NCBI GenBank assembly: GCA_017434295.1
Contig: JAFRFO010000097.1
Location: 1 to 40,887 of the forward strand
Length of the DNA stretch: 40,887 nt
Origin: Clostridia bacterium
GTDB taxonomy: Bacteria > Bacillota > Clostridia > TANB77 > CAG-508
Direction: 5' to 3'
Shown here: one piece after another, positions 1 to 40,887 of the stretch
Layout: every line of letters begins with the position of its first letter
Numbering within the stretch: position 1 is the first letter of the stretch
Made by a program: the position numbers and the translations under genes
Notes under the pieces: model-generated
Seen by the model: only the letters and a program-made list of their open reading frames with translations
Database searches by the model: none
Told to the model about the DNA's origin: nothing

Positions 1-141
1 AGAGAGATCAATCATAAGGACTTCGCTAGAGTTTTATCCTCGTAAGATAGCAAGTTATAATAACTCAAAACACGTATGGACATTTGATAATGGGTCTATC
101 ATTGATTTCGGATACATAGATAATGAAAATGATGTGTATCA
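1..141. repeat. 141-bp terminal direct repeat, copy 1 (circular assembly overlap)
   Basis: 1-141 is identical to 40747-40887 and lies inside the terL reading frame, so it is probably an assembler overlap rather than a physical terminal repeat. Confidence 0.95.
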
Positions 142-1222
142 GTACCAAAGTGCAGAATATGATGTTATCCGTTTTGATGAGTTGACTCATTTTACTGAGT
201 ATATGTATACGTATATGATTTCACGTTGTCGTGGAGCAAACGATTATCCTAAAAGAATTAAGAGTTCTACCAATCCAGGTGGAGTAGGACACGTATGGGT
301 AAAAGAGAGATTCGTAGACATTGGACCTGCTGGAAAGATGCACGAGTGCCGTCTGGAAACAGGAGAAACTACAACAAGACTTTTTATACCGTCTTTTGTA
401 ACAGATAATAAATTCTTAATGAAACGAGATCCTGATTATGTAAAACGACTTGATGCACTACCTGAAAAAGAACGTAAAGCCTTAAAAGAAGGTAATTGGG
501 ATATATTTGATGGACAATACTTCAAAGATTTCGACCGTTCAGTACACGTAATAGAACCTTTCGATATTCCTGATAATTGGGACCGTTATCGTACAATAGA
601 CTATGGACTAGATATGTTAGCGTGTTACTGGATAGCAATCGCCCCTGATGGAAGGGAATATTGCTATAGGGAACTCTACGAAAATGATTTAATCATCTCA
701 GAAGCAGCTAAAAAGATAGTAGAAATGACTGGTGATGAGAAAATTCGTTATACATACGGACCACCAGACCTATGGAATAGGCGAAATGACACAGGAAAGA
801 ACGCATACGATATATTCCGTGAAAATGGTGTAATTATCACTAAGAGTTCAAACAATCGTATTTTAGGGTGGTATTCAGTACAAGAACATATAAAAATATA
901 CAAAATGAAAGATGAACAAACAGGCGAAGAGATGCGTATGAGCAAACTTCGCTTTTTTGATACTTGTAGGAACCTTATTCGTACACTACCAGTAATACAA
1001 AGAGATGAAAAAAATCCAAATGACTGTGCAAAACAACCTCACGAACTAACACACGCTCCTGATGCTATAAGAGGGTTCTGCATAGAACGTACAAAAGCAA
1101 CTCGAATAATGAGCGAAGAAGAGCTTTTATATGAGCAATCTAAGCGTGATAGAAGAAGATTAGGCATCTTAGGTATAGCAGGAGCAACAGCGACAAGAGA
1201 ATATATGAAATATGGAGGTTAG
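2..1222 (+). CDS. terL: Terminase large subunit, 3' part (continues from 40553/40562 across the junction)
   Basis: Walker B VIRFDE, STNPGG coupling motif, RNase H-like nuclease motif IDYG...HAPDAIR; in frame with the Walker A segment at the window end. Confidence 0.95.
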   Translation, partial: ERSIIRTSLEFYPRKIASYNNSKHVWTFDNGSIIDFGYIDNENDVYQYQSAEYDVIRFDELTHFTEYMYTYMISRCRGANDYPKRIKSSTNPGGVGHVWVKERFVDIGPAGKMHECRLETGETTTRLFIPSFVTDNKFLMKRDPDYVKRLDALPEKERKALKEGNWDIFDGQYFKDFDRSVHVIEPFDIPDNWDRYRTIDYGLDMLACYWIAIAPDGREYCYRELYENDLIISEAAKKIVEMTGDEKIRYTYGPPDLWNRRNDTGKNAYDIFRENGVIITKSSNNRILGWYSVQEHIKIYKMKDEQTGEEMRMSKLRFFDTCRNLIRTLPVIQRDEKNPNDCAKQPHELTHAPDAIRGFCIERTKATRIMSEEELLYEQSKRDRRRLGILGIAGATATREYMKYGG

Positions 1223-1224
1223 AT

Positions 1225-1431
1225 ATGGAAATATTTATAGCGATTCTACTAATAGCATTTATAGCAGTAGAAATTTTAAATAATAAACGTCTATGGGACT
1301 TAGAAAAGAAGATAAACGAAAAAGAAAAAATCAAACTTACACAAAAGCAAAAGAAGAAAATGGAAGAGTTAAAGAAAAATTTCGATAACTTAATGGAATA
1401 TGATGAGAATATTGCGATGAAAAGGAAGTGA
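1225..1431 (+). CDS. Small membrane-anchored coiled-coil protein
   Basis: GGAGG RBS; hydrophobic N-terminus followed by a Lys-rich helix; lies between terL and portal. Confidence 0.7.
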   Translation: MEIFIAILLIAFIAVEILNNKRLWDLEKKINEKEKIKLTQKQKKKMEELKKNFDNLMEYDENIAMKRK

Positions 1432-1436
1432 AATAG

Positions 1437-3320
1437 ATGGAAATAACAAAAGATTGGGAACTATACGAAGCAGGAATAGAGTATAACCAACAAGTTTATG
1501 GTGCTGACCGTAACTATTATGAAGTTTTAGACACAAATATTGCTTTCGCAAGTGGCGACCAATGGAGAGGAGTTCAAGCAGATGGACTACCAAAACCTGT
1601 TTTTAACATCATAAAGCGTGTAAAACAGTTTAAAATCGCATCTTTAAAGGCAGATAACATCTCAATTCAACTAACTCCAATGGAATATAGACCACAATCT
1701 GAAGATATAACAATGCAACATAAGGTAAAACAAGCAGATTTAGCAAATGCTGAAATCAAAAACATCTTAGAGAACATAAATTTTGATGCTAAAAGTCGTA
1801 CACTTTTATCTGATGGATTCGATACAGGAGATTGGTGTATGCACTTTTACTTTGATATGGATGAACAACCTTATAAGAGCTATATGCCAAGCGTAAAAGG
1901 TGTAATAAAAGCAGAAATAATCGACTCTACTAATGTAATGTTTGGAAATCCAAACACTCGTCAAGTAGATAAACAACCATACATCATAATTGTAGGTAGA
2001 AATTTAGTTAAAAATCTACAAGAAGAAGCAAAAAAGAATAAATCAAGCCAAATTGACCGTATTAAAGGTGATTCTGAAACAGATTATCAGATGGGAGATA
2101 ACGGAAAAGTAGAAAATTCTGCTGATGGATATGAAAAAGCACTATATATAATCAAGTATTATAAGAAAAACGGTAAAATTTATGCTAATAAATCTACTAA
2201 AAACGCTTATATTTACAAAGAAAAAGACACAAAACTAAGTTATTATCCTATTGCGTTTAATAACTGGGAAGAAGTTAAAGGAACATATCACGGTAGAGCA
2301 GAAACTACTGGTATAATTCCTAACCAAATAGCGATAAATAAGATGTTTGCGATGGTTATTTATCATTTGATGCTAACAGCTTTTCCTACAGCAGTATATG
2401 ATGCAGATCGTATAGAGGGTTGGACTAATGAAATAGGTGCACAAATACCTGTAACTAACCTACAAGGCGACTCAATTCACAATATTGCAGGTTATTTAGA
2501 ACCAGCAACAATGAGTGGACAAATAATGAACGCTATTGAGTTAGCTATGCAATACACAAAAGAGACTTTAGGAGTAGGAGATGCTTCTTTAGGTAATGTA
2601 ACAATGAATAATGCAACTGCAATCATAGCAATACAAAAGAGTGCAGCAGTACCATTAGAGAACGTAAAAGCTGCATTATATGAATTTGTAGAAGATTCAG
2701 GAAAAATCATTGTTGATATGATGGCATCTTACTACGGACCAAGACCAGTTGTAGTACAAGGACCAAATAATGAACGTACAGTAGAGATGTTTGACTTTGG
2801 ACAACTAAAAGATATGTGGATGCACATAAAAACAGACATCGGAAACGCTTCATACTTCTCTGAAGTAGCAAGTATTCAAACATTAGATAATTTGTTAAAC
2901 AACGGTATGATAGAATTTGTTGAATATCTAAGAAGAATACCTGATGAAATCATACCTCAAAAGCAAGAACTTATAAATTCTATCGAACAAAACGACATTT
3001 ATAAACAAGCAATCTATAACTTGATGGGACAATTTATGGATACACTACCACCTGAAGTAAGAGCACAATTACTACAATTAAATCCAGAACAAATGGAACA
3101 ACGTGTCCTAGAAATGATGGGAGCATTAGATAATGGAACTCAAGGTATGGCACAAATCTCTGATATGGAGAATCCACTACCAACTCCTGAAGATCTAGCA
3201 GGAACATTACAACAAGGAGAACCTGGATTTATGGAAATGATGCAACCACAAACTGAAGTTGGAAGAGATTCAGTAAAGAAAATGCAAGATTTAGAAGAAA
3301 TAGGAGGATTACAGAGCTAA
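1437..3320 (+). CDS. Portal protein (P22-like podovirus type)
   Basis: 627 aa after terL; GDQW...PVFNIIK N-terminal motif, LGVGDASLG...ATAI motif, Gln/Met-rich C-terminal extension. Confidence 0.88.
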   Translation: MEITKDWELYEAGIEYNQQVYGADRNYYEVLDTNIAFASGDQWRGVQADGLPKPVFNIIKRVKQFKIASLKADNISIQLTPMEYRPQSEDITMQHKVKQADLANAEIKNILENINFDAKSRTLLSDGFDTGDWCMHFYFDMDEQPYKSYMPSVKGVIKAEIIDSTNVMFGNPNTRQVDKQPYIIIVGRNLVKNLQEEAKKNKSSQIDRIKGDSETDYQMGDNGKVENSADGYEKALYIIKYYKKNGKIYANKSTKNAYIYKEKDTKLSYYPIAFNNWEEVKGTYHGRAETTGIIPNQIAINKMFAMVIYHLMLTAFPTAVYDADRIEGWTNEIGAQIPVTNLQGDSIHNIAGYLEPATMSGQIMNAIELAMQYTKETLGVGDASLGNVTMNNATAIIAIQKSAAVPLENVKAALYEFVEDSGKIIVDMMASYYGPRPVVVQGPNNERTVEMFDFGQLKDMWMHIKTDIGNASYFSEVASIQTLDNLLNNGMIEFVEYLRRIPDEIIPQKQELINSIEQNDIYKQAIYNLMGQFMDTLPPEVRAQLLQLNPEQMEQRVLEMMGALDNGTQGMAQISDMENPLPTPEDLAGTLQQGEPGFMEMMQPQTEVGRDSVKKMQDLEEIGGLQS

Positions 3321-3404
3321 TTAATTGGGATGTATATGGGAACAGGAAAGTATCATTTTAACTGTTGGAAGGGTTGGTAAGATACTTGATAAATCACTCC
3401 TGAA

Positions 3405-3556
3405 ATGCTGCTTATAGGCAGCATAGGGTAGAAAGAAATAAAAAAATTTAAAAGAAAGAGCCAAAAAAAGTATCGGCGAACTGCTTTAATATAAGTTTGT
3501 ATAAAAAATAACCAACCTATCTGACTTTCTATCCTATGGTGTCTATAAAGGCACTA
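3405..3556 (+). ncRNA. Putative structured RNA unit 1 (long carrier stem plus cargo)
   Basis: 3412-3435 pairs with 3525-3548 (24 positions, G-U wobbles, one G.G mismatch); alternative short hairpins at 3405-3424 and 3537-3556. Confidence 0.65.
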
Positions 3557-3589
3557 TTCTAGATTTTGTCAATTTTTTGGCATAAAACA

Positions 3590-3761
3590 GTGCTACCTTA
3601 TTGGTAGCATAGAGTAGATATACCTAGTATTGCATTGTGAAGTTTAGAGACCTATTACGAGGGACATATAAGACAATACATATAGGGAGTGAAAGTTCAT
3701 ATTTGATAGGTCAAGAACGACTAACTCTATATCTATTCTATGGTGCTAATAAATAGCACTA
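3590..3761 (+). ncRNA. Putative structured RNA unit 2 (same carrier architecture, different cargo)
   Basis: 3598-3622 pairs with 3728-3752 with the same G.G mismatch; compensatory changes relative to unit 1; internal hairpins with complementary loops. Confidence 0.7.
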
Positions 3762-3783
3762 AGACACATTATGTGTCTTTTTT
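3761..3783 (+). terminator. Intrinsic terminator after the RNA units
   Basis: AAGACACA-tta-TGTGTCTT followed by a T run. Confidence 0.7.
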
Positions 3784-3815
3784 AATGCCCAACCATAGGC
3801 AAAGGAGGAAATTAA

Positions 3816-4682
3816 ATGGAAGATGAGAAAATTGTTGATGGTACACCAACAGAAACAATGGAATCAGACGATGACTTTTTTAATGATGTAGACGATGAAG
3901 TCTTAGGAGAAGAAAGTCAAGAATCATCAGAAGAAGAAACAAATGAGGATAGCGAACCAAGTGAAACTCAGGAAGATAATTCAGAAGATGAAAACGAAGT
4001 GGATTTTAAACCTTTGTTGGAAGAATTATCAAAGAAGGTAAAGTACAACAAAGAAAACGTAACTATTGAAAACTTAGAGGATTTAATCAATGGGTACCAA
4101 AAAGGATTGAATTACGATAAAAAAGTTCAAGAGTTAGAAAATCTACAAAATAGCAAGGCAGAGGTATATCTTAAAAAGAAAGCCGATGAATTAGGTATCT
4201 CAGTAGACGAGTATATGGACCAAGTTGAAGCTTATGAGAAACAACAAAAAGCCGAAAGGGACCAAGAAAGACTCGAAGAAATGATTGAAAGCGGAGTGCC
4301 TGAAGAACTTGCTAAAGAAGTAATTGCTACAGCAGAGTTACGTAGGCAATTACAATTAAAAGAAAACGAACTAAAGGAAAAGGAAAAACAAACAGAGGCG
4401 AAAGAAAAAGAAGAAAAAGAATACCAAGACTTTCTTAAAAACTTTCCCGATGTCAATCCTGAAGATATTCCTAAAGAAGTTTTCGAGGAAGCAGTAAATT
4501 CTGATTTAAGTTCTGCTTATATGAAATATAAAATGAAAGATTTAGAAAACCAATTAAAAATAGCAAAACAAAATGAAGAAAATTCTGCATCCACAGTCGG
4601 AGGAGTTACTAATACAGGAACTACCAAAGAAAACCATATAAGCGATCCGTTCTTAGAAGGATTTAGCGAAGAAGAATATTAA
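3816..4682 (+). CDS. Capsid scaffolding protein
   Basis: Very acidic, coiled-coil, QKGLNYD motif, DPFLEGF C-terminus; directly upstream of the capsid gene. Confidence 0.8.
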   Translation: MEDEKIVDGTPTETMESDDDFFNDVDDEVLGEESQESSEEETNEDSEPSETQEDNSEDENEVDFKPLLEELSKKVKYNKENVTIENLEDLINGYQKGLNYDKKVQELENLQNSKAEVYLKKKADELGISVDEYMDQVEAYEKQQKAERDQERLEEMIESGVPEELAKEVIATAELRRQLQLKENELKEKEKQTEAKEKEEKEYQDFLKNFPDVNPEDIPKEVFEEAVNSDLSSAYMKYKMKDLENQLKIAKQNEENSASTVGGVTNTGTTKENHISDPFLEGFSEEEY

Positions 4683-4702
4683 AAAAGAGAGGATGATAAA
4701 TA

Positions 4703-5599
4703 ATGGCAGAACAAATTCATTTAGCCGAGAAATATTCAAGCAAAGTTGCTGAAAGATTTAAAATGAAATCATTAGCAACAGGATTTACTAATAGAGATTA
4801 TGATTGGGATGGAGTTAAAACAATTAAGATTTATTCAATTCCTACAGTACCTCTATATGATTACAATAGAAATGGAAAGGTATATCAAGTTGGTTCAAAC
4901 GATACATATCCACCTTCAGGAAATGATGGAGTATCACGTTATGGACAATTAAATGATTTACAAGATAGCATTCAAACAGCAACTATCACTCAAGATAAAT
5001 CATTTACTTTCATAATCGATAAAGGTGATAAGATGGATTCAATGAACGTAAGAGATGCAGGAAAAGCGTTAAGACGTGAAATTGATGAAGTTATTGTACC
5101 TACTCAAGATAAATATACATTTAGTGTTATTGAAAGTGCTGCAGTAGCAAATTCAATGACTGGTTCAGGTTCATTAAGCAAAGAAAATGTATATGCAGCT
5201 TTCTTAGCAGGACAAACTGCTTTAGATAATAAGTTAGTACCTGCTGGTGGAAGAGTTGCAGCAGTTAACGCTTCAACATTAGCATTACTAAAACAAGATG
5301 ACTCTTTTGTTAAAGCTAGTGAAATCGGACAAAAGATGTTAATAAATGGACAAGTAGGAGAATTAGATGGAATTAAAATTGTTAAAGTTCCTGATAGTTA
5401 TCTACCTGCTGGTTGTGCATTTATAATTACTCACCCATCTGTAACAGTTAAAGCTGAAAAATTAGCAGATTATAAGATTCATACTAATCCACCTTTCATA
5501 AGTGGAAACTTAGTTGAAGGTAGAATTTACTATGATGCTTTCGTATTAGATGCTAAGAAAGATGGAGTATATGCACATTTAGGAACAGCAAGTCTATAG
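4703..5599 (+). CDS. Major capsid protein (HK97 fold)
   Basis: 298 aa after scaffold; motifs GVKTIKI, QDKSFTFIID, GQVGELDG, GNLVEGRIYYDAFVLD. Confidence 0.9.
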   Translation: MAEQIHLAEKYSSKVAERFKMKSLATGFTNRDYDWDGVKTIKIYSIPTVPLYDYNRNGKVYQVGSNDTYPPSGNDGVSRYGQLNDLQDSIQTATITQDKSFTFIIDKGDKMDSMNVRDAGKALRREIDEVIVPTQDKYTFSVIESAAVANSMTGSGSLSKENVYAAFLAGQTALDNKLVPAGGRVAAVNASTLALLKQDDSFVKASEIGQKMLINGQVGELDGIKIVKVPDSYLPAGCAFIITHPSVTVKAEKLADYKIHTNPPFISGNLVEGRIYYDAFVLDAKKDGVYAHLGTASL

Positions 5600-5604
5600 T
5601 ATAA

Positions 5605-5654
5605 ATCAAGAGTTTATCTCTTGATATAAGCAAGGCGACCCCTCCTTGCTTATA
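5605..5654 (+). promoter_or_regulatory. Two adjacent hairpins after the capsid gene (mRNA stabiliser or attenuator)
   Basis: ATCAAGAG/CTCTTGAT and TATAAGCAAGG/CCTTGCTTATA inverted repeats; no U tract. Confidence 0.5.
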
Positions 5655-5676
5655 TGAGGGGATAAAGGAGGTAAAT

Positions 5677-6084
5677 ATGTTAGCAGAAGAAGTATTTAGA
5701 ATAACAATGGCTATGATAGATGAAATGACAACAGCGGGAGAATTAAACGAAACTACAACTGCAGAATATCGTGCAAAAGCACCTTCGATTTTATCTATGT
5801 TACAAGCTGAGTTAATAGGCATAGAAAACAGATATAGAGATTCAAAAGAACAAATCTCACCAGTACCAATAGAGAGTTTAGACCAACCTTTACAAATAGA
5901 TGTAATAAAAGCAACGACATTACTAACAAATGGTTTGGCTGCAAACTTAATGGTAGTTGAAGACAAAACATTAGCAAGTTTCTTTGAACAAAGATATGAA
6001 GAGATGAAAGGTTTATTCTTAAAACCAAAGCCAAGAAAACCAGAAACAAGACGAGATGTTTATGACTCTACACTAAATTATTAG
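5677..6084 (+). CDS. Putative head-tail adaptor
   Basis: 135-aa helical protein between capsid and tail nozzle; call rests on size and synteny. Confidence 0.6.
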   Translation: MLAEEVFRITMAMIDEMTTAGELNETTTAEYRAKAPSILSMLQAELIGIENRYRDSKEQISPVPIESLDQPLQIDVIKATTLLTNGLAANLMVVEDKTLASFFEQRYEEMKGLFLKPKPRKPETRRDVYDSTLNY

Positions 6085-6094
6085 GAGGTAGATT

Positions 6095-8158
6095 ATGGCA
6101 GTAATAAAAGCAGACAAAGCAACAAAACCAACTACAATAGATAAATTCTTAGGTTTGAATTTATCAGATACAGGAGATACACAAATATCTTTAGGTGAAT
6201 CAGGAAATATGACTAATTTTTATATAACTGATGATTTGAAACTAAGAAAAATATGTGGTTATCAAATATTTAAACAATTCGAAGAACCAATAAAAGGTAT
6301 TTTTTCAGCTAAGATAGGAGATAATAAATATCTACTTGTTGCAAGTGGTAGCAAATTATATTATTTTGATGGAGATTTATTGAATAGCAACTTTGAAGTT
6401 GTACCTGAAAAATACCAAACATTTACTGGAGATGGAGATGAAACAACATTTCAATTATCAAAAACAAATGTAGACTCTATAGATAAAGTTTATATAAATG
6501 GTGAAGAACAAACTACGGGATGGAGTGGGGATACAGTAACAGGAGAAATAACTTTTGTAGAAGCCCCAGCAGATAAAGCATTTATAAGAGTCTTATATAC
6601 TAAACCAATTACTTTTGTAGAAGCAGGAACCATTTCTGGTGGAGATGCTTCTTTTTTTGAGTTTGATAATTGTGTTTATATACTATGCGGAGAATATTAT
6701 AAATTTTATAAAAATCAAAGTAACGAAATGGTTGTTTCACCAGTATATGGTTATACACCAACAGTATTTATAAATACCCCTGCTGGAGCAAACGGTGGTG
6801 GAACTATCTATGAAGAAATAAATATGTTATCACCATACAAAAGACAAACTTTCAACGGTGATGGTTCGACAAAACAATTTAAAATTGCACAAATACCTGA
6901 TTCTATAACTTCGGTTAAAGTATGGGATGGTAGTGCTTGGAATAGTGCTGCATATACAGCGGCATCAGATGTTATAACAATTACAACTGCTCCTTCTCAA
7001 GGGCAGGATAATGTAGAAATAATATGGTCTAAAGATGATAATGATAGAAACATAATAGCAGGTATGAAATTCGGAACAGTCTTTGGTGGAGATGTAGATA
7101 CAAGAGTATTCTTATACGGAAATCCAAGTTGTCAAAACAGAGTCTACTTTAGTGCTATTTCTTATGCAAATGATATAGCCGTACCTAGTGCAGAATATTT
7201 TCCTGCAACTGCACAAGTAGATATAGGACCTTTAAACTTTGCAGTAACAGATTTAACAAGACAATATGATCGCTTGTTAGCAACTACAAATAAACCAGAA
7301 GCATATTACTTAACAATATCGCTAGAACAGCTTCCTGTAACATTAGCAGATGATAGTACAGCTACTCGTTATGTACCAGCTGTAAGTACATTTCCTTTAA
7401 ACGGAGCACACGGTAATATTGCTCCAGGTCAAGGACAGTTGTTAATGAATTATCCAGTAACATTTGAAGATGGTGCGATAATACAATGGAAAGCAACTAA
7501 CGTAAGAGATGAAAAAAATGCCGAAGATATAGGGCAAAAAATAAAATTAGATTTAGACAAAATACAAATTCACAATATAAAAACATTAGATTTGCAAGAA
7601 CATAATCAGTTATGGATAATATACGAAAATGAAGCTTGGATATATAACTACTACAATCAAACATATTCAAGACTTAAATTTCCTCAAAACGTAAATATGA
7701 CGAATATATGTTCGTTAGATGGAAAAGTATATATGAGTACAAATGATAATGAAATTGTAAAATTTGATGAAATATTTACAACTTACGGTGGTGAAACAAT
7801 AGAAGCATATTGGGAAATGAATTTTTCGGACTTTGGAGTACCATACTTGAGAAAAACAATGGGAAAATTATGGGTGTTAATGCAACCACAAAACTGGTCA
7901 AGTGCAGACATTAATTTCATATCAAATGTTGCTGAAAGCACAATTTCAAAACATATCGAATATAAGAAACAATGGTTTGATGATGTTCACTTTGGAGATT
8001 TCAGTTTTAAATCTTCAACAAATCCACAACCATTTAAACTAAAATTAAAAGCAAAAAAATTCACTAATTTAAAAATAACAATAAAAAATGAAGAAAACTC
8101 TACTTGCACAATACTATCATTAGTGTTACAAGTAGAAAGTTTCGGATATAGTAAATAG
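6095..8158 (+). CDS. Tail nozzle / stabilisation protein (tubular-B / P22 gp10-like)
   Basis: FLGLN N-terminal motif, beta-propeller-like composition, two inserted TFxGDG...F beta modules; podovirus synteny. Confidence 0.7.
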   Translation: MAVIKADKATKPTTIDKFLGLNLSDTGDTQISLGESGNMTNFYITDDLKLRKICGYQIFKQFEEPIKGIFSAKIGDNKYLLVASGSKLYYFDGDLLNSNFEVVPEKYQTFTGDGDETTFQLSKTNVDSIDKVYINGEEQTTGWSGDTVTGEITFVEAPADKAFIRVLYTKPITFVEAGTISGGDASFFEFDNCVYILCGEYYKFYKNQSNEMVVSPVYGYTPTVFINTPAGANGGGTIYEEINMLSPYKRQTFNGDGSTKQFKIAQIPDSITSVKVWDGSAWNSAAYTAASDVITITTAPSQGQDNVEIIWSKDDNDRNIIAGMKFGTVFGGDVDTRVFLYGNPSCQNRVYFSAISYANDIAVPSAEYFPATAQVDIGPLNFAVTDLTRQYDRLLATTNKPEAYYLTISLEQLPVTLADDSTATRYVPAVSTFPLNGAHGNIAPGQGQLLMNYPVTFEDGAIIQWKATNVRDEKNAEDIGQKIKLDLDKIQIHNIKTLDLQEHNQLWIIYENEAWIYNYYNQTYSRLKFPQNVNMTNICSLDGKVYMSTNDNEIVKFDEIFTTYGGETIEAYWEMNFSDFGVPYLRKTMGKLWVLMQPQNWSSADINFISNVAESTISKHIEYKKQWFDDVHFGDFSFKSSTNPQPFKLKLKAKKFTNLKITIKNEENSTCTILSLVLQVESFGYSK

Positions 8159-40552: not shown

Positions 40553-40887
40553 GTGGTTAAACTGAATTTAGATTTAAGTATAACGGAGAAGCAAGAACTA
40601 TTCATGGATTCAGAAGCATTTGAAACGCTATTCGGAGGAGCAGCAGGAGGAGGAAAATCATACGGACAATTAGTAGATGCTTTAGTATATGCTTTGAGAT
40701 ATGAGAAGAGTAAGCAGATAATCTTCCGTAGGACATTTCCTGATTTAGAGAGATCAATCATAAGGACTTCGCTAGAGTTTTATCCTCGTAAGATAGCAAG
40801 TTATAATAACTCAAAACACGTATGGACATTTGATAATGGGTCTATCATTGATTTCGGATACATAGATAATGAAAATGATGTGTATCA
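40553..40887 (+). CDS. terL: Terminase large subunit, 5' part
   Basis: TEKQELF...LFGGAAGGGKS (Walker A)...IFRRTFPDL; start is GTG 40553 or CTG 40562. Confidence 0.92.
   Translation, partial: MVKLNLDLSITEKQELFMDSEAFETLFGGAAGGGKSYGQLVDALVYALRYEKSKQIIFRRTFPDLERSIIRTSLEFYPRKIASYNNSKHVWTFDNGSIIDFGYIDNENDVY
40747..40887. repeat. 141-bp terminal direct repeat, copy 2
   Basis: Identical to 1-141. Confidence 0.95.

What the first reader, a model, noticed from the sequence alone, without database searches (positions are those of the whole stretch)
3405..3783. Tandem 'carrier stem plus variable cargo' RNA cassettes between portal and scaffold
Seen: the 495-bp gap holds two units with the same architecture. 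Unit 1 pairs TTATAGGCAGCATAGGGTAGAAAG (3412-3435) with CTTTCTATCCTATGGTGTCTATAA (3525-3548). Unit 2 pairs TTATTGGTAGCATAGAGTAGATATA (3598-3622) with TATATCTATTCTATGGTGCTAATAA (3728-3752). Both stems keep a G.G mismatch at the same AGCA/TGGT position and differ by compensatory changes. Their wobbles are G-U only on the + strand, which points to a + strand RNA. Each arm can also fold into a competing short outer hairpin. The enclosed ~89-nt and ~105-nt cargoes are unrelated, and a terminator follows. Inference: this is a modular system for excising small RNAs from the late transcript, much as RNase III or Mini-III processing stems release rRNA. The cargo could be exchangeable decoy RNAs (antitoxin mimics or anti-CRISPR RNAs) or assembly RNAs. 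This is my best candidate for an undescribed system.
Basis: partly seen in the sequence, partly recalled or inferred. Interest (0 to 1): 0.85.

Follow-up and report, generated by a model that had tools for sequence, protein, structure and literature searches.

The report
Phage RNA clamp carrying swappable cargo
After the portal gene of a gut phage sit two copies of a conserved RNA stem that clamps unrelated small RNAs; the same clamp recurs in many uncultured phage contigs, often beside tRNA genes and sometimes holding tRNA look-alikes, and it matched no RNA family in the library I searched.

Summary
Both units (3412-3548, 3598-3752) are copies of one RNA architecture. It has a 9-bp sequence-conserved outer stem, an invariant G.G mismatch and a 14-bp inner stem that covaries freely. 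The cargo is variable (3-143 nt), and each arm can refold into its own small flanking hairpin. I found 118 unique cassettes with a covariance model. A pattern that fixes only the outer arms found 70 more, and their unspecified inner positions are 90-96% paired (52 distinct inner strands; 91% paired against 57% after partner shuffling). G.U far outnumbers A.C, and cassettes are co-oriented with their neighbours. These point to a + strand RNA. Cargo is modular: 87 cargo clusters among 118 cassettes, and the window's unit 2 cargo recurs in a different inner stem elsewhere. Some cargoes are true tRNAs or tRNA look-alikes that use the clamp top as acceptor stem, and arrays lie inside tRNA operons. 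Rfam 15 has no match; Nop, TROVE and reverse-transcriptase partners are missing. Best reading: a processing and stabilising clamp for phage small RNAs. Cleavage itself is not shown.

The parts
1437..3320 (+). Portal gene, upstream neighbour on the same strand. No + strand promoter-like site was found between it and the cassettes.
   Evidence: PF16510 P22_portal E 1.6e-11, 43.9 bits; promoter scan
3405..3424 (+). Flanking hairpin A of cassette 1 (ATGCTGCTTA/TAGGCAGCAT). It shares its 3' strand with the outer stem, so it is an alternative to the extended stem.
   Evidence: (I7); a hairpin A of at least 6 bp is present in 105 of 116 cassettes against 15.6% in shuffled flanks
3412..3435 (+). Cassette 1, 5' arm: outer stem 3412-3420 (9 nt), mismatch G 3421, inner stem 3422-3435 (14 nt)
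3436..3524 (+). Cassette 1 cargo, 89 nt and A-rich. It is a singleton with no relative among the cargoes collected, and neither ARAGORN nor Rfam calls it a tRNA.
3525..3548 (+). Cassette 1, 3' arm: inner stem 3525-3538, mismatch G 3539, outer stem 3540-3548
3536..3557 (+). Flanking hairpin B of cassette 1
   Evidence: a hairpin B of at least 6 bp is present in 85 of 116 cassettes against 9.5% in controls
3591..3609 (+). Flanking hairpin A of cassette 2 (TGCTACC-TTATT-GGTAGCA)
3598..3622 (+). Cassette 2, 5' arm: outer stem 3598-3606, mismatch G 3607, inner stem 3608-3621 (+1 to +14), A3622 (+15)
3623..3727 (+). Cassette 2 cargo, 105 nt, predicted as a multi-helix fold. The same cargo recurs upstream of the terminase region in two related phages (L052, L074) and, read by eye as essentially identical, inside a different inner stem in L206.
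3728..3752 (+). Cassette 2, 3' arm: T3728 (+15), inner stem 3729-3742, mismatch G 3743, outer stem 3744-3752
3743..3760 (+). Flanking hairpin B of cassette 2 (GGTGCTA-ATAAA-TAGCACT)
3761..3785 (+). Intrinsic-terminator-like hairpin (8 pairs) followed by a T run
3786..3808 (+). Small hairpin TGCC-CAACCATA-GGCA abutting the AGGAGG ribosome-binding site of the next gene. The stem covaries in relatives (GGGC/GCCC, GGCT/AGCC and others).
   Evidence: read by eye
3816..4682 (+). Acidic 288-aa ORF, called a scaffold protein only from its position before the capsid-like ORF 4703-5599. Downstream neighbour on the same strand.
   Evidence: only sub-threshold Pfam hits

Best explanation
Each unit is a + strand RNA clamp cassette. 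The transcript that leaves the portal gene folds each unit into an extended helix: a 9-bp sequence-conserved outer stem (consensus UUAUAGGUA / UGCUUAUAA), a fixed G.G mismatch, and a 14-bp inner stem of free sequence with a purine-pyrimidine (mostly G.U) pair at position +7. This helix closes off an independently folding small RNA, the cargo. The clamp is a shared expression platform that many gut and rumen phages of low-GC Bacilli-like hosts use for small stable RNAs, usually co-transcribed with tRNAs. Cargoes are exchanged between clamps and between genome sites by recombination at the conserved arms. Inferred, not shown: a double-strand-specific host endonuclease (RNase III family; the genome bin encodes both a full-length and a Mini-III-sized enzyme) cuts the extended helix and releases the cargo with part of the inner stem. 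The spare complementary strands outside the arms then let the upstream RNA end in hairpin A and the downstream RNA begin with hairpin B, which would protect both new ends from exonucleases. Where the cargo is tRNA-like, the top 7 bp of the clamp serve as acceptor stem (U at -1, discriminator A, then U), so RNase P and RNase Z could finish the job. In the window the two cassettes therefore yield two small RNAs of unknown role and also mark the boundary between portal mRNA and scaffold-capsid mRNA.
For: STRUCTURE. In 118 unique cassettes anchored on the G.G, offsets -9 to -1 are paired in 93-98% and +1 to +14 in 92-100%, with 2-6 pair types per position. Pairing falls to 70% at +15 and to 47% or less beyond. 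In 20 short-cargo cassettes 94.8% of cells are paired, 11 of 24 pairs change on both sides, 0 of 500 shuffles reach this, and slid controls give 29-52%.
UNBIASED TEST. A pattern fixing only the outer arms gave 70 unique matches in 78 new loci. Their unspecified +2 to +14 positions are 90-96% paired. Across 52 distinct inner strands pairing is 91.4%, against 57.2% (sd 2.0, max 65.2%) in 1000 partner shuffles.
STRAND. G.U 86 against A.C 16 of 910 unspecified cells. The model scores the sense strand about 30 bits higher in the window and in the overlapping pairs I read. The nearest tRNA within 500 nt is on the same strand for 52 of 52 cassettes that have one. For 82 of 82 cassettes with a neighbour within 300 nt, all those neighbours are co-oriented. 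303 of 340 flanking ORFs are co-oriented, and 7 of 199 overlap an ORF of 100 aa or more.
OPERON CONTEXT. L107 reads tRNA-Met, tRNA-Gln, five cassettes, tRNA-Leu, terminator.
MODULARITY. 87 cargo clusters among 118 cassettes. Unit 2's cargo sits in a different inner stem in L206. Contigs from other runs join 3620/3622 to 3722-3730 with other letters between. Homologous cargoes carry compensated stems.
tRNA LINK. The Rfam tRNA model scores above its gathering score inside cassettes: L015 48.7, L006 44.5, L041 42.5 and L022 42.4 bits. In L006 and L022 the acceptor stem is the clamp top. A T-arm abuts the clamp in 11 of 177 cassettes, against 4 of 6614 other positions.
REFOLDING HAIRPINS. A in 105 of 116, B in 85 of 116, both in 78 of 116; controls 15.6% and 9.5%. 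The extended form is more stable by more than 1 kcal/mol in 92 of 116, median 4.05 kcal/mol.
ENZYMES. RNase III-domain frames of 228 and 133 aa in the bin.
Against: No RNA ends were seen. The runs available were assembled contigs, so neither transcription of the cassettes nor cleavage is demonstrated. The strong sequence conservation of the outer stem and of the type I inner stem across unrelated phages is more than a plain RNase III substrate should need. It suggests a sequence-specific protein I did not identify. About a dozen of the 118 clamps have cargoes under 20 nt, so the cargo is not essential to the element. The window's cargo 1 is A-rich, weakly structured and without relatives, so it may not be functional. 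Many cassettes come from related phages and are not independent.
Confidence: 0.55

Rival explanations
1. The clamp is only an mRNA punctuation and stability hairpin, of the kind I recall for T7 or SP82 RNase III sites. It would set the relative amounts of portal and scaffold/capsid mRNA. The 'cargo' would be tolerated filler that accumulates in an apical loop free to vary.
For: Short-loop versions (cargo 3-18 nt) occupy the portal-scaffold junction in many relatives whose gaps are only 97-116 nt. The window's cargo 1 has no relatives and little structure. The element sits exactly at a boundary where stoichiometry must change.
Against: Cargoes recur across phages and are better conserved than the stem around them. 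In A2, long cargo blocks are invariant while the stem is rewritten with compensation, and the cargo has its own covarying helices. Some cargoes are real or near tRNAs. Arrays of up to five cassettes lie inside tRNA operons with no mRNA to punctuate. L206 carries a lone cassette with a terminator-like hairpin on each side (by eye).
Confidence: 0.2
2. The units are mobile DNA: MITE-like elements, or cassettes moved by a recombinase that recognises the folded arms as single-stranded DNA (as I recall for attC sites or IS200/IS605 ends). The stem would be a DNA, not an RNA, signal.
For: Near-identical arms occur in phage contigs of very different size, with listed contig lengths of 2.2-136 kb. The same cassette is found at different genome positions: unit 2's cargo lies after the portal gene here and about 2 kb upstream of it in L052/L074. 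Cargo is replaced exactly at the arm boundary. G.T pairs would also stabilise folded + strand DNA.
Against: The interior is not conserved (87 clusters of 118), unlike MITEs. Orientation is fixed relative to tRNAs and neighbouring cassettes (52 of 52, 82 of 82). No transposase or integrase family appeared among the 25 of 34 Pfam and 25 of 124 PHROG families shown for 52 window ORFs. The inner stem is kept at 14 bp by compensatory change while its sequence drifts. The clamp doubles as a tRNA acceptor stem. Passive exchange by homologous recombination at the arms explains the mobility without a DNA-level function.
Confidence: 0.1
3. The clamp is the binding site of a sequence-specific RNA-binding protein (phage or host) that acts without cleavage. 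It might load the cargo into a complex or particle, or switch between the extended and three-hairpin folds to regulate downstream translation or termination.
For: The outer stem, the G.G mismatch, the pyrimidine at +1, U at +3 and the purine at +7 are conserved as sequence, not only as pairs. Two mutually exclusive folds are both maintained. In the window a terminator and a conserved pre-RBS hairpin follow.
Against: No candidate protein was identified. The partners of known clamp-like RNAs are missing: Nop, TROVE and reverse transcriptase on the phage contig. The extended fold is usually favoured by about 4 kcal/mol, so a switch would need a driver.
Confidence: 0.12

Closest known systems
Phage RNase III processing hairpins (T7 R-sites; SP82 early-mRNA sites cut by B. 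subtilis RNase III). Recalled, not read: SP82 appeared only in the occurrence counts of the listing.
   Same: Sequence-related hairpins repeated in intergenic gaps of polycistronic phage transcripts. Helix of about two turns. As I recall, irregularities in the helix guide cleavage and leave a protective hairpin on the upstream RNA.
   Different: Those sites have small apical loops and carry nothing. Here the apex holds 3-143 nt of unrelated, often structured RNA including tRNAs, the units form arrays in tRNA operons, and spare strands for two refolding hairpins are built in. Cleavage is not shown here.
rRNA and scRNA precursor processing stalks (RNase III; Mini-III for 23S rRNA)
   Same: A long helix formed by sequences flanking a stable RNA brings its ends together for a double-strand-specific nuclease. 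The bin has both enzyme types. Passages of PMC4357697 place the Mini-III site at the end of the 5'/3' stem near a three-way junction. Passages of PMC11780869 show B. subtilis RNase III cutting long-range duplexes with a 2-nt overhang.
   Different: Those stalks are specific to one RNA each. Here one clamp serves at least 87 different cargoes. No rRNA is involved. The ACC^U preference of Mini-III fits only the short hairpin A (CUACCU/AGGUAG), not the extended helix, so it is a weak lead.
Bacterial Y RNA-like YrlA (RF02553), partner of Ro60/Rsr
   Same: A long terminal stem plus a tRNA-like module; often phage- or prophage-borne (recalled).
   Different: YrlA scored 17.4 bits against a gathering score of 69. 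No TROVE protein in the bin. As I recall, the YrlA tRNA-like module joins its stem through the anticodon-stem position, whereas here the clamp continues the acceptor stem. Most cargoes here are not tRNA-like.
TIGR arrays with Tas proteins (PMC12045711, passages read), and CRISPR arrays
   Same: Phage-borne tandem units of conserved repeat plus variable insert, transcribed and processed into small RNAs. Some TIGR arrays are stem-loop units.
   Different: TIGR units have 8-12-nt repeats, two 9-nt spacers, box C/D motifs and an adjacent Nop-domain gene. Here there is no Nop, the stem has 24 positions, and inserts of 3-143 nt are structured RNAs rather than guides.
MITEs whose inverted ends fold in RNA and are cut by RNase III (Neisseria Correia elements; recalled)
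   Same: Terminal inverted repeats of about 25 nt around an interior of about 100 nt, found in intergenic sites and co-transcribed.
   Different: MITE interiors are conserved and insertions occur in both orientations with target duplications. Here the interiors are unrelated and orientation is fixed.
tRNA precursors, and GOLLD/ROOL-type large phage RNAs that lie beside tRNAs (PMC5737381, passages read)
   Same: Phage-borne non-coding RNAs that lie near tRNA genes, perhaps co-transcribed with them as that paper suggests. A subset of cargo passes the Rfam tRNA model.
   Different: GOLLD and ROOL are single RNAs of about 600 nt or more with fixed folds. The clamp is a small module with free content. 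Leader-trailer pairing that extends the acceptor stem is reported to hinder bacterial RNase P (PMC9433436, abstract only), so a prior cut would be needed.

Membership tests
Any Rfam 15 family | Covariance-model score at or above the family's gathering score | tested here: not met
   0 matches in the whole window. In 3250-3900 at E<=10 only sub-threshold noise, best RnaG at 22.7 bits against 153. In 15 related loci only tRNA matched.
RNase III-type processing stem | Regular double helix of about 20 bp or more formed within one transcript | tested here: met
   9 bp + G.G + 14 bp, paired in 92-100% of 118 cassettes; also in 70 pattern-found cassettes.
RNase III-type processing stem | Staggered cleavage of both strands (2-nt 3' overhang) that depends on RNase III | not testable with these tools
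   Only assembled contigs could be laid, so no RNA ends are visible.
RNase III-type processing stem | The enzyme is available in the host | tested here: met
   PF14622/PF00636 frame of 228 aa on C13 and a PF00636 frame of 133 aa on C33 of the bin. The host link rests on binning only.
MITE / Correia-like element | Conserved interior shared by the copies | tested here: not met
   87 cargo clusters among 118 unique cassettes.
MITE / Correia-like element | Insertion in either orientation | tested here: not met
   52 of 52 co-oriented with the nearest tRNA; 82 of 82 with neighbouring cassettes; 303 of 340 with flanking ORFs.
MITE / Correia-like element | Target-site duplication at the ends | not tested
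   None seen by eye; no systematic test was run.
TIGR-Tas | Adjacent Nop-domain (Tas) gene | tested here: not met
   PF01798 has no match in G000, including the phage contig, at E<=0.01.
TIGR-Tas | Alternating 8-12-nt repeats with two 9-nt spacers and box C/D motifs | tested here: not met
   Units are 24-position stems with inserts of 3-143 nt, compared with the description in PMC12045711.
Y RNA / YrlA | Ro60/Rsr (TROVE) partner and the YrlA model score | tested here: not met
   PF05731 has no match in G000. YrlA scored 17.4 bits against a gathering score of 69 in L006 and gave no hit in the window.
Retron msr-msd | Reverse transcriptase encoded next to the RNA | tested here: not met
   PF00078 matches lie only on contigs C105, C108 and C8, none on C95.
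Integron attC | R-box core GTTRRRY/RYYYAAC at the ends, with ORF cassettes between sites (features recalled) | tested here: not met
   The arm consensus TTATAGGTAG...GTGCTTATAA lacks the core (by eye). Spacers between cassettes carry no ORFs. An integrase search was not run.
phi29-type packaging RNA | Match to Rfam's phage pRNA family (accession RF00044 recalled) | tested here: not met
   No match in the window. A terminase large subunit is present.
tRNA (for the cargo) | Rfam RF00005 at or above 29 bits, or an ARAGORN call | tested here: not met
   Neither window cargo is called. Met in relatives: L015 48.7, L006 44.5, L041 42.5 and L022 42.4 bits.

The most novel reading that the evidence does not exclude
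The clamp defines a phage-borne library system for small RNAs, an RNA counterpart of gene cassettes. A universal, enzyme-readable carrier lets phages acquire, shuffle and express in arrays dozens of unrelated structured RNAs. These include tRNA mimics whose acceptor stem is sealed by the clamp, so that they cannot be charged until they are cut. Many cargoes would act as decoys or regulators against host tRNA-targeting or RNA-sensing defences. The built-in refolding hairpins make excision scarless for the flanking mRNAs.
Probability: 0.3. Interest if true: 0.9.

Novelty: new variant of a known kind. Interest (0 to 1): 0.8.

Why it matters
If the reading holds, a large group of uncultured gut and rumen phages shares a dedicated platform for making small RNAs. 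That would open a catalogue of at least 87 uncharacterised phage RNAs, some of them tRNA mimics, each already delimited by the clamp and so easy to find and test. It would also give a natural, portable design for expressing a small RNA from within an mRNA: a clamp for excision plus self-sealing hairpins for the flanks. Even the modest reading has value. It is a new, strongly covarying RNA structure with a fixed G.G mismatch, a 14-bp ruler and two maintained folds. That makes it a clean substrate for asking how RNase III-family enzymes of low-GC bacteria choose their sites.

Tried and rejected
Rfam: no family at gathering score in the window. The E<=10 hits (RnaG, Ref84 and others) are noise.

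Cultured-phage records: blastn in 'distant' mode of the gap and of window 1-8000 found nothing. Arms of 25 nt are near BLAST's limit, so this is weak.

RNA evidence: the single sequencing-run run offered only assembled contigs. After laying X20, X18, X19 and X7 I could read no starts or ends, and I draw nothing from their depth. The only usable result is that contigs from other samples join the unit 2 arms with other cargo between.

Antisense or decoy target search: blastn-short of both window cargoes and of all 118 cargoes against the rest of the bin gave only A/T-rich matches of 12-25 nt for cargo 1 and others, and no cargo 2 hit in the printed (truncated) output.

Host mimicry: model R1 finds nothing else in the bin and matches 1 of 150 relatives. 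Hairpin A-like and B-like strings are not a host repeat.

Mini-III idea: ACC^U (PMC4357697) fits the 5' strand of hairpin A only. I kept it as a lead, not evidence.

Also considered and set aside: phi29 pRNA, retron, TIGR-Tas, Y RNA, attC and MITE (see membership tests). The 27394/27498 site is chance.

ARAGORN with introns calls the L013/L016/L019 cargo 'tRNA-Stop(tta)'. I treat this as a lead only.

My first constrained-fold comparison used the direction symbols the wrong way round and is void. One search replaces it.

Literature: eight full-text searches returned nothing describing this clamp. Supplements were not opened, and those of PMC5737381 hold the 224 motif drawings, which I did not see.
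Full report
WHAT IS IN THE WINDOW. The window is a whole 40,887-bp contig (C95) of a 1.4-Mb, 27% G+C genome bin. Its genes are those of a tailed phage: terminase large subunit, P22-type portal, capsid-like ORF, tail fibres, endolysin, SSB, Erf, HNH endonucleases and repressors. Between the portal ORF (1437-3320) and an acidic ORF (3816-4682, called scaffold from its position only) lies a 495-bp gap. Each has a G opposite a G (3421/3539, 3607/3743), G.T wobbles on the + strand, small hairpins that compete for the outer arm and unrelated interiors. A terminator-like hairpin with a T run follows at 3761-3785. No + strand promoter-like site lies in the gap. The + strand folds better than the - strand (-117.3 against -101.3 kcal/mol; z -7.5 against -5.0).

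THE SAME ELEMENT ELSEWHERE. A pattern built from the two arm cores hit 20 IMG/VR contigs. The portal protein brought in 73 related loci. An 18-mer of the left arm hit 16 contigs of metagenome-assembled genomes, labelled uncultured Bacilli, Tenericutes, Coprobacillus, Clostridia and others. Such labels depend on binning.

From 20 short-cargo copies I built alignment A1 and covariance model R1. R1 finds only the two units in the window, at 62.9 bits each on + and 33.7 and 31.9 on -. It gave 160 and 40 matches, counting both strands, in the fetched loci. Taking the better strand at each place gave 129 cassettes, of which 118 are unique sequences.

ANATOMY. Anchored on the G.G, which is present in 118 of 118 (partly by construction of the model):
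- The nine outer positions are paired in 93-98% and are conserved as sequence.
- Positions +1 to +14 are paired in 92-100%, with two to six pair types each.
- Pairing drops to 70% at +15 and to 47% or less beyond. The inner stem is therefore a 14-bp unit of free sequence.
- Wobbles recur at -4 (G.U 82 of 118), -2 (U.G 77 of 118) and +7 (G.U 81 of 118; a purine on the 5' strand in 117 of 118).

On A1 the tool count gives 94.8% paired cells. 11 of 24 pairs change on both sides, 0 of 500 shuffles are as high, and slid controls give 29-52%.

Because a covariance model rewards pairs, I ran an unbiased test. A pattern specifying only the outer arms and the pair next to the mismatch returned 90 stretches, of which 80 were listed. 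In the 78 new loci there were 70 unique matches. Their unspecified positions +2 to +14 are paired in 90-96%, falling to 74% at +15 and 44% at +16. With one representative for each of the 52 distinct inner strands, 91.4% of cells pair, against 57.2% (sd 2.0, max 65.2%) in 1000 partner shuffles. G.U cells outnumber A.C cells 86 to 16 of 910. The stem is real, it is kept by compensatory change, and it is read on the + strand.

TWO MAINTAINED FOLDS. Outside each arm lies a spare strand. A contiguous hairpin of at least 6 bp that uses the 3' part of the left arm (hairpin A) exists in 105 of 116 cassettes with enough flank, against 15.6% for shuffled flanks. The mirror hairpin B exists in 85 of 116 (control 9.5%), and both exist in 78 of 116. 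In these hairpins each mismatch G pairs with a C (106 and 97 of 116). Constrained folding makes the extended helix the more stable form by more than 1 kcal/mol in 92 of 116. The forms are within 1 kcal/mol in 15, and the three-hairpin form is more stable in 9; the median difference is 4.05 kcal/mol (one search is void). The left outer arm therefore pairs with two partners, its spare strand and the right arm, and the wobbles are what allow this.

CARGO. The 118 cassettes hold 87 cargo clusters, with lengths from 3 to 143 nt. Several results show modular exchange:
- Unit 2's cargo recurs upstream of the terminase region, next to a tRNA-Arg gene, in L052 and L074.
- Read by eye, the same cargo appears letter for letter in L206 inside an inner stem of quite different sequence, with a terminator-like hairpin on each side.
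- Contigs of three other gut or rumen runs join 3620/3622 to 3722-3730 with 12, 18 or 37 other letters between. These are the same arms with another cargo.
- Homologous cargoes in L100, L107 and L008, and in L017 and L107, sit in stems rewritten with full compensation. RNAalifold finds covarying helices inside that cargo as well: 16 of 53 predicted pairs are compensated, though from only three sequences.

tRNA LINK. For the 52 of 199 cassette instances with a tRNA gene within 500 nt, the nearest one is always on the same strand. Another 82 have a cassette within 300 nt, all co-oriented. 303 of 340 nearest ORFs are co-oriented, and 7 of 199 cassettes overlap an ORF of 100 aa or more. L107 reads tRNA-Met, tRNA-Gln, five cassettes, tRNA-Leu, terminator. 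L003 has two cassettes just upstream of nine tRNAs.

In L015 and L021 the cargo is a complete tRNA-Trp. In L006 and L022 the Rfam tRNA model passes its gathering score (44.5 and 42.4 bits), and the alignments take the top seven pairs of the clamp as acceptor stem. U stands at -1, A at the discriminator position, and U follows. L041 scores 42.5 bits with a matching span, but I did not see its alignment. A T-arm-like hairpin abuts the clamp top in 11 of 177 unique cassettes, against 4 of 6614 other cargo positions. Neither window cargo is tRNA-like.

WHERE IT IS NOT. The clamp is absent from the rest of the bin and was found in 1 of 150 related genomes searched. It is a phage feature, not a host one. 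The listed contigs that carry it range from 2.2 kb to 136 kb, so it is probably shared by different phage groups.

MECHANISM: SHOWN AND INFERRED. Shown: a conserved + strand helix with a ruler-like inner stem, alternative flanking hairpins, exchangeable and sometimes tRNA-like cargo, and positions beside or within tRNA gene clusters. Inferred: the extended helix is cut by a double-strand-specific nuclease. The bin encodes RNase III-domain frames of 228 aa and 133 aa. Passages of PMC11780869 show B. subtilis RNase III cutting long-range duplexes, and passages of PMC4357697 place the Mini-III site at a terminal stem near a junction. After the cut, the spare strands would let the flanking RNAs seal themselves with hairpins A and B. 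From memory, a 3' hairpin slows 3' exonucleases and a 5' hairpin blocks RNase J1; PMC11780869 mentions stabilising 5' hairpins on cleaved products. tRNA-like cargoes could then be finished by RNase P and RNase Z. The preferences for U at -1 and for U after the discriminator are recalled. PMC9433436 (abstract only) reports that leader pairing which extends the acceptor stem hinders RNase P, which fits a need for a prior cut. None of the cleavage steps could be tested.

COMPARISON WITH KNOWN SYSTEMS. No Rfam 15 family matches. The phage has no Nop gene, so TIGR-Tas is out. The bin has no TROVE gene, and YrlA scores 17.4 bits against 69. There is no reverse transcriptase on the contig, so a retron is out. 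MITE behaviour fails on interior conservation and on orientation. The nearest analogues in how it would work are phage RNase III sites (T7, SP82; recalled) and rRNA/scRNA processing stalks. The clamp differs from both in serving many unrelated cargoes, in forming arrays in tRNA operons, and in its built-in refolding hairpins. Eight full-text searches found no description of it. Supplements were closed.

VERDICT. I rate it a new variant of a known kind (processing stems), with a 0.3 chance that it is a new kind of phage small-RNA cassette system. Interest 0.8.

Noticed in passing
window 3338-3387: A conserved pseudoknot-like motif lies just after the portal stop codon. GGGAACAGG (3338-3346) pairs with CTGTTGG (3362-3368), and AAGTATC (3348-3354) pairs with GATACTT (3381-3387), with an invariant GGGTTGG in between. 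In L022/L023, L036, L008 and L191 the second helix changes with compensation (AAGCATC/GATGCTT, AGTGAT/ATCACT, AAACAC/GTGTTT). In L008 and L191 it sits directly before a ribosome-binding site. No Rfam match.
   Followed up: partly
window 3786-3808: A small hairpin with loop CAACCATA abuts the AGGAGG of the scaffold-like gene. It is conserved in most portal-related loci, with stem covariation (TGCC/GGCA, TGGGC/GCCCA, GGCT/AGCC), read by eye. It may be a translation or 5'-end stability element.
   Followed up: no
window 40553-40887 joined to 1-1222: The terminase large-subunit frame runs without a stop across the contig ends (518 codons, then a stop), with no terminal repeat. The contig therefore looks like a complete, circularly closed phage genome.
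   Followed up: partly
portal-related loci L053, L058, L062, L066, L049, L055, L083, L039 (region after the portal gene): In many relatives a small lysine- and glutamate-rich ORF of about 60-130 aa is inserted between the portal gene and the clamp. The window lacks it.
   Followed up: no
If real, it would be a suppressor-like tRNA whose acceptor stem is the clamp.
   Followed up: no
G000 contigs C105, C108, C8: The host bin carries four reverse-transcriptase matches, with frames of 482, 367, 242 and 433 aa; the two matches on C8 look like one split gene. They are unrelated to the phage contig.
   Followed up: no
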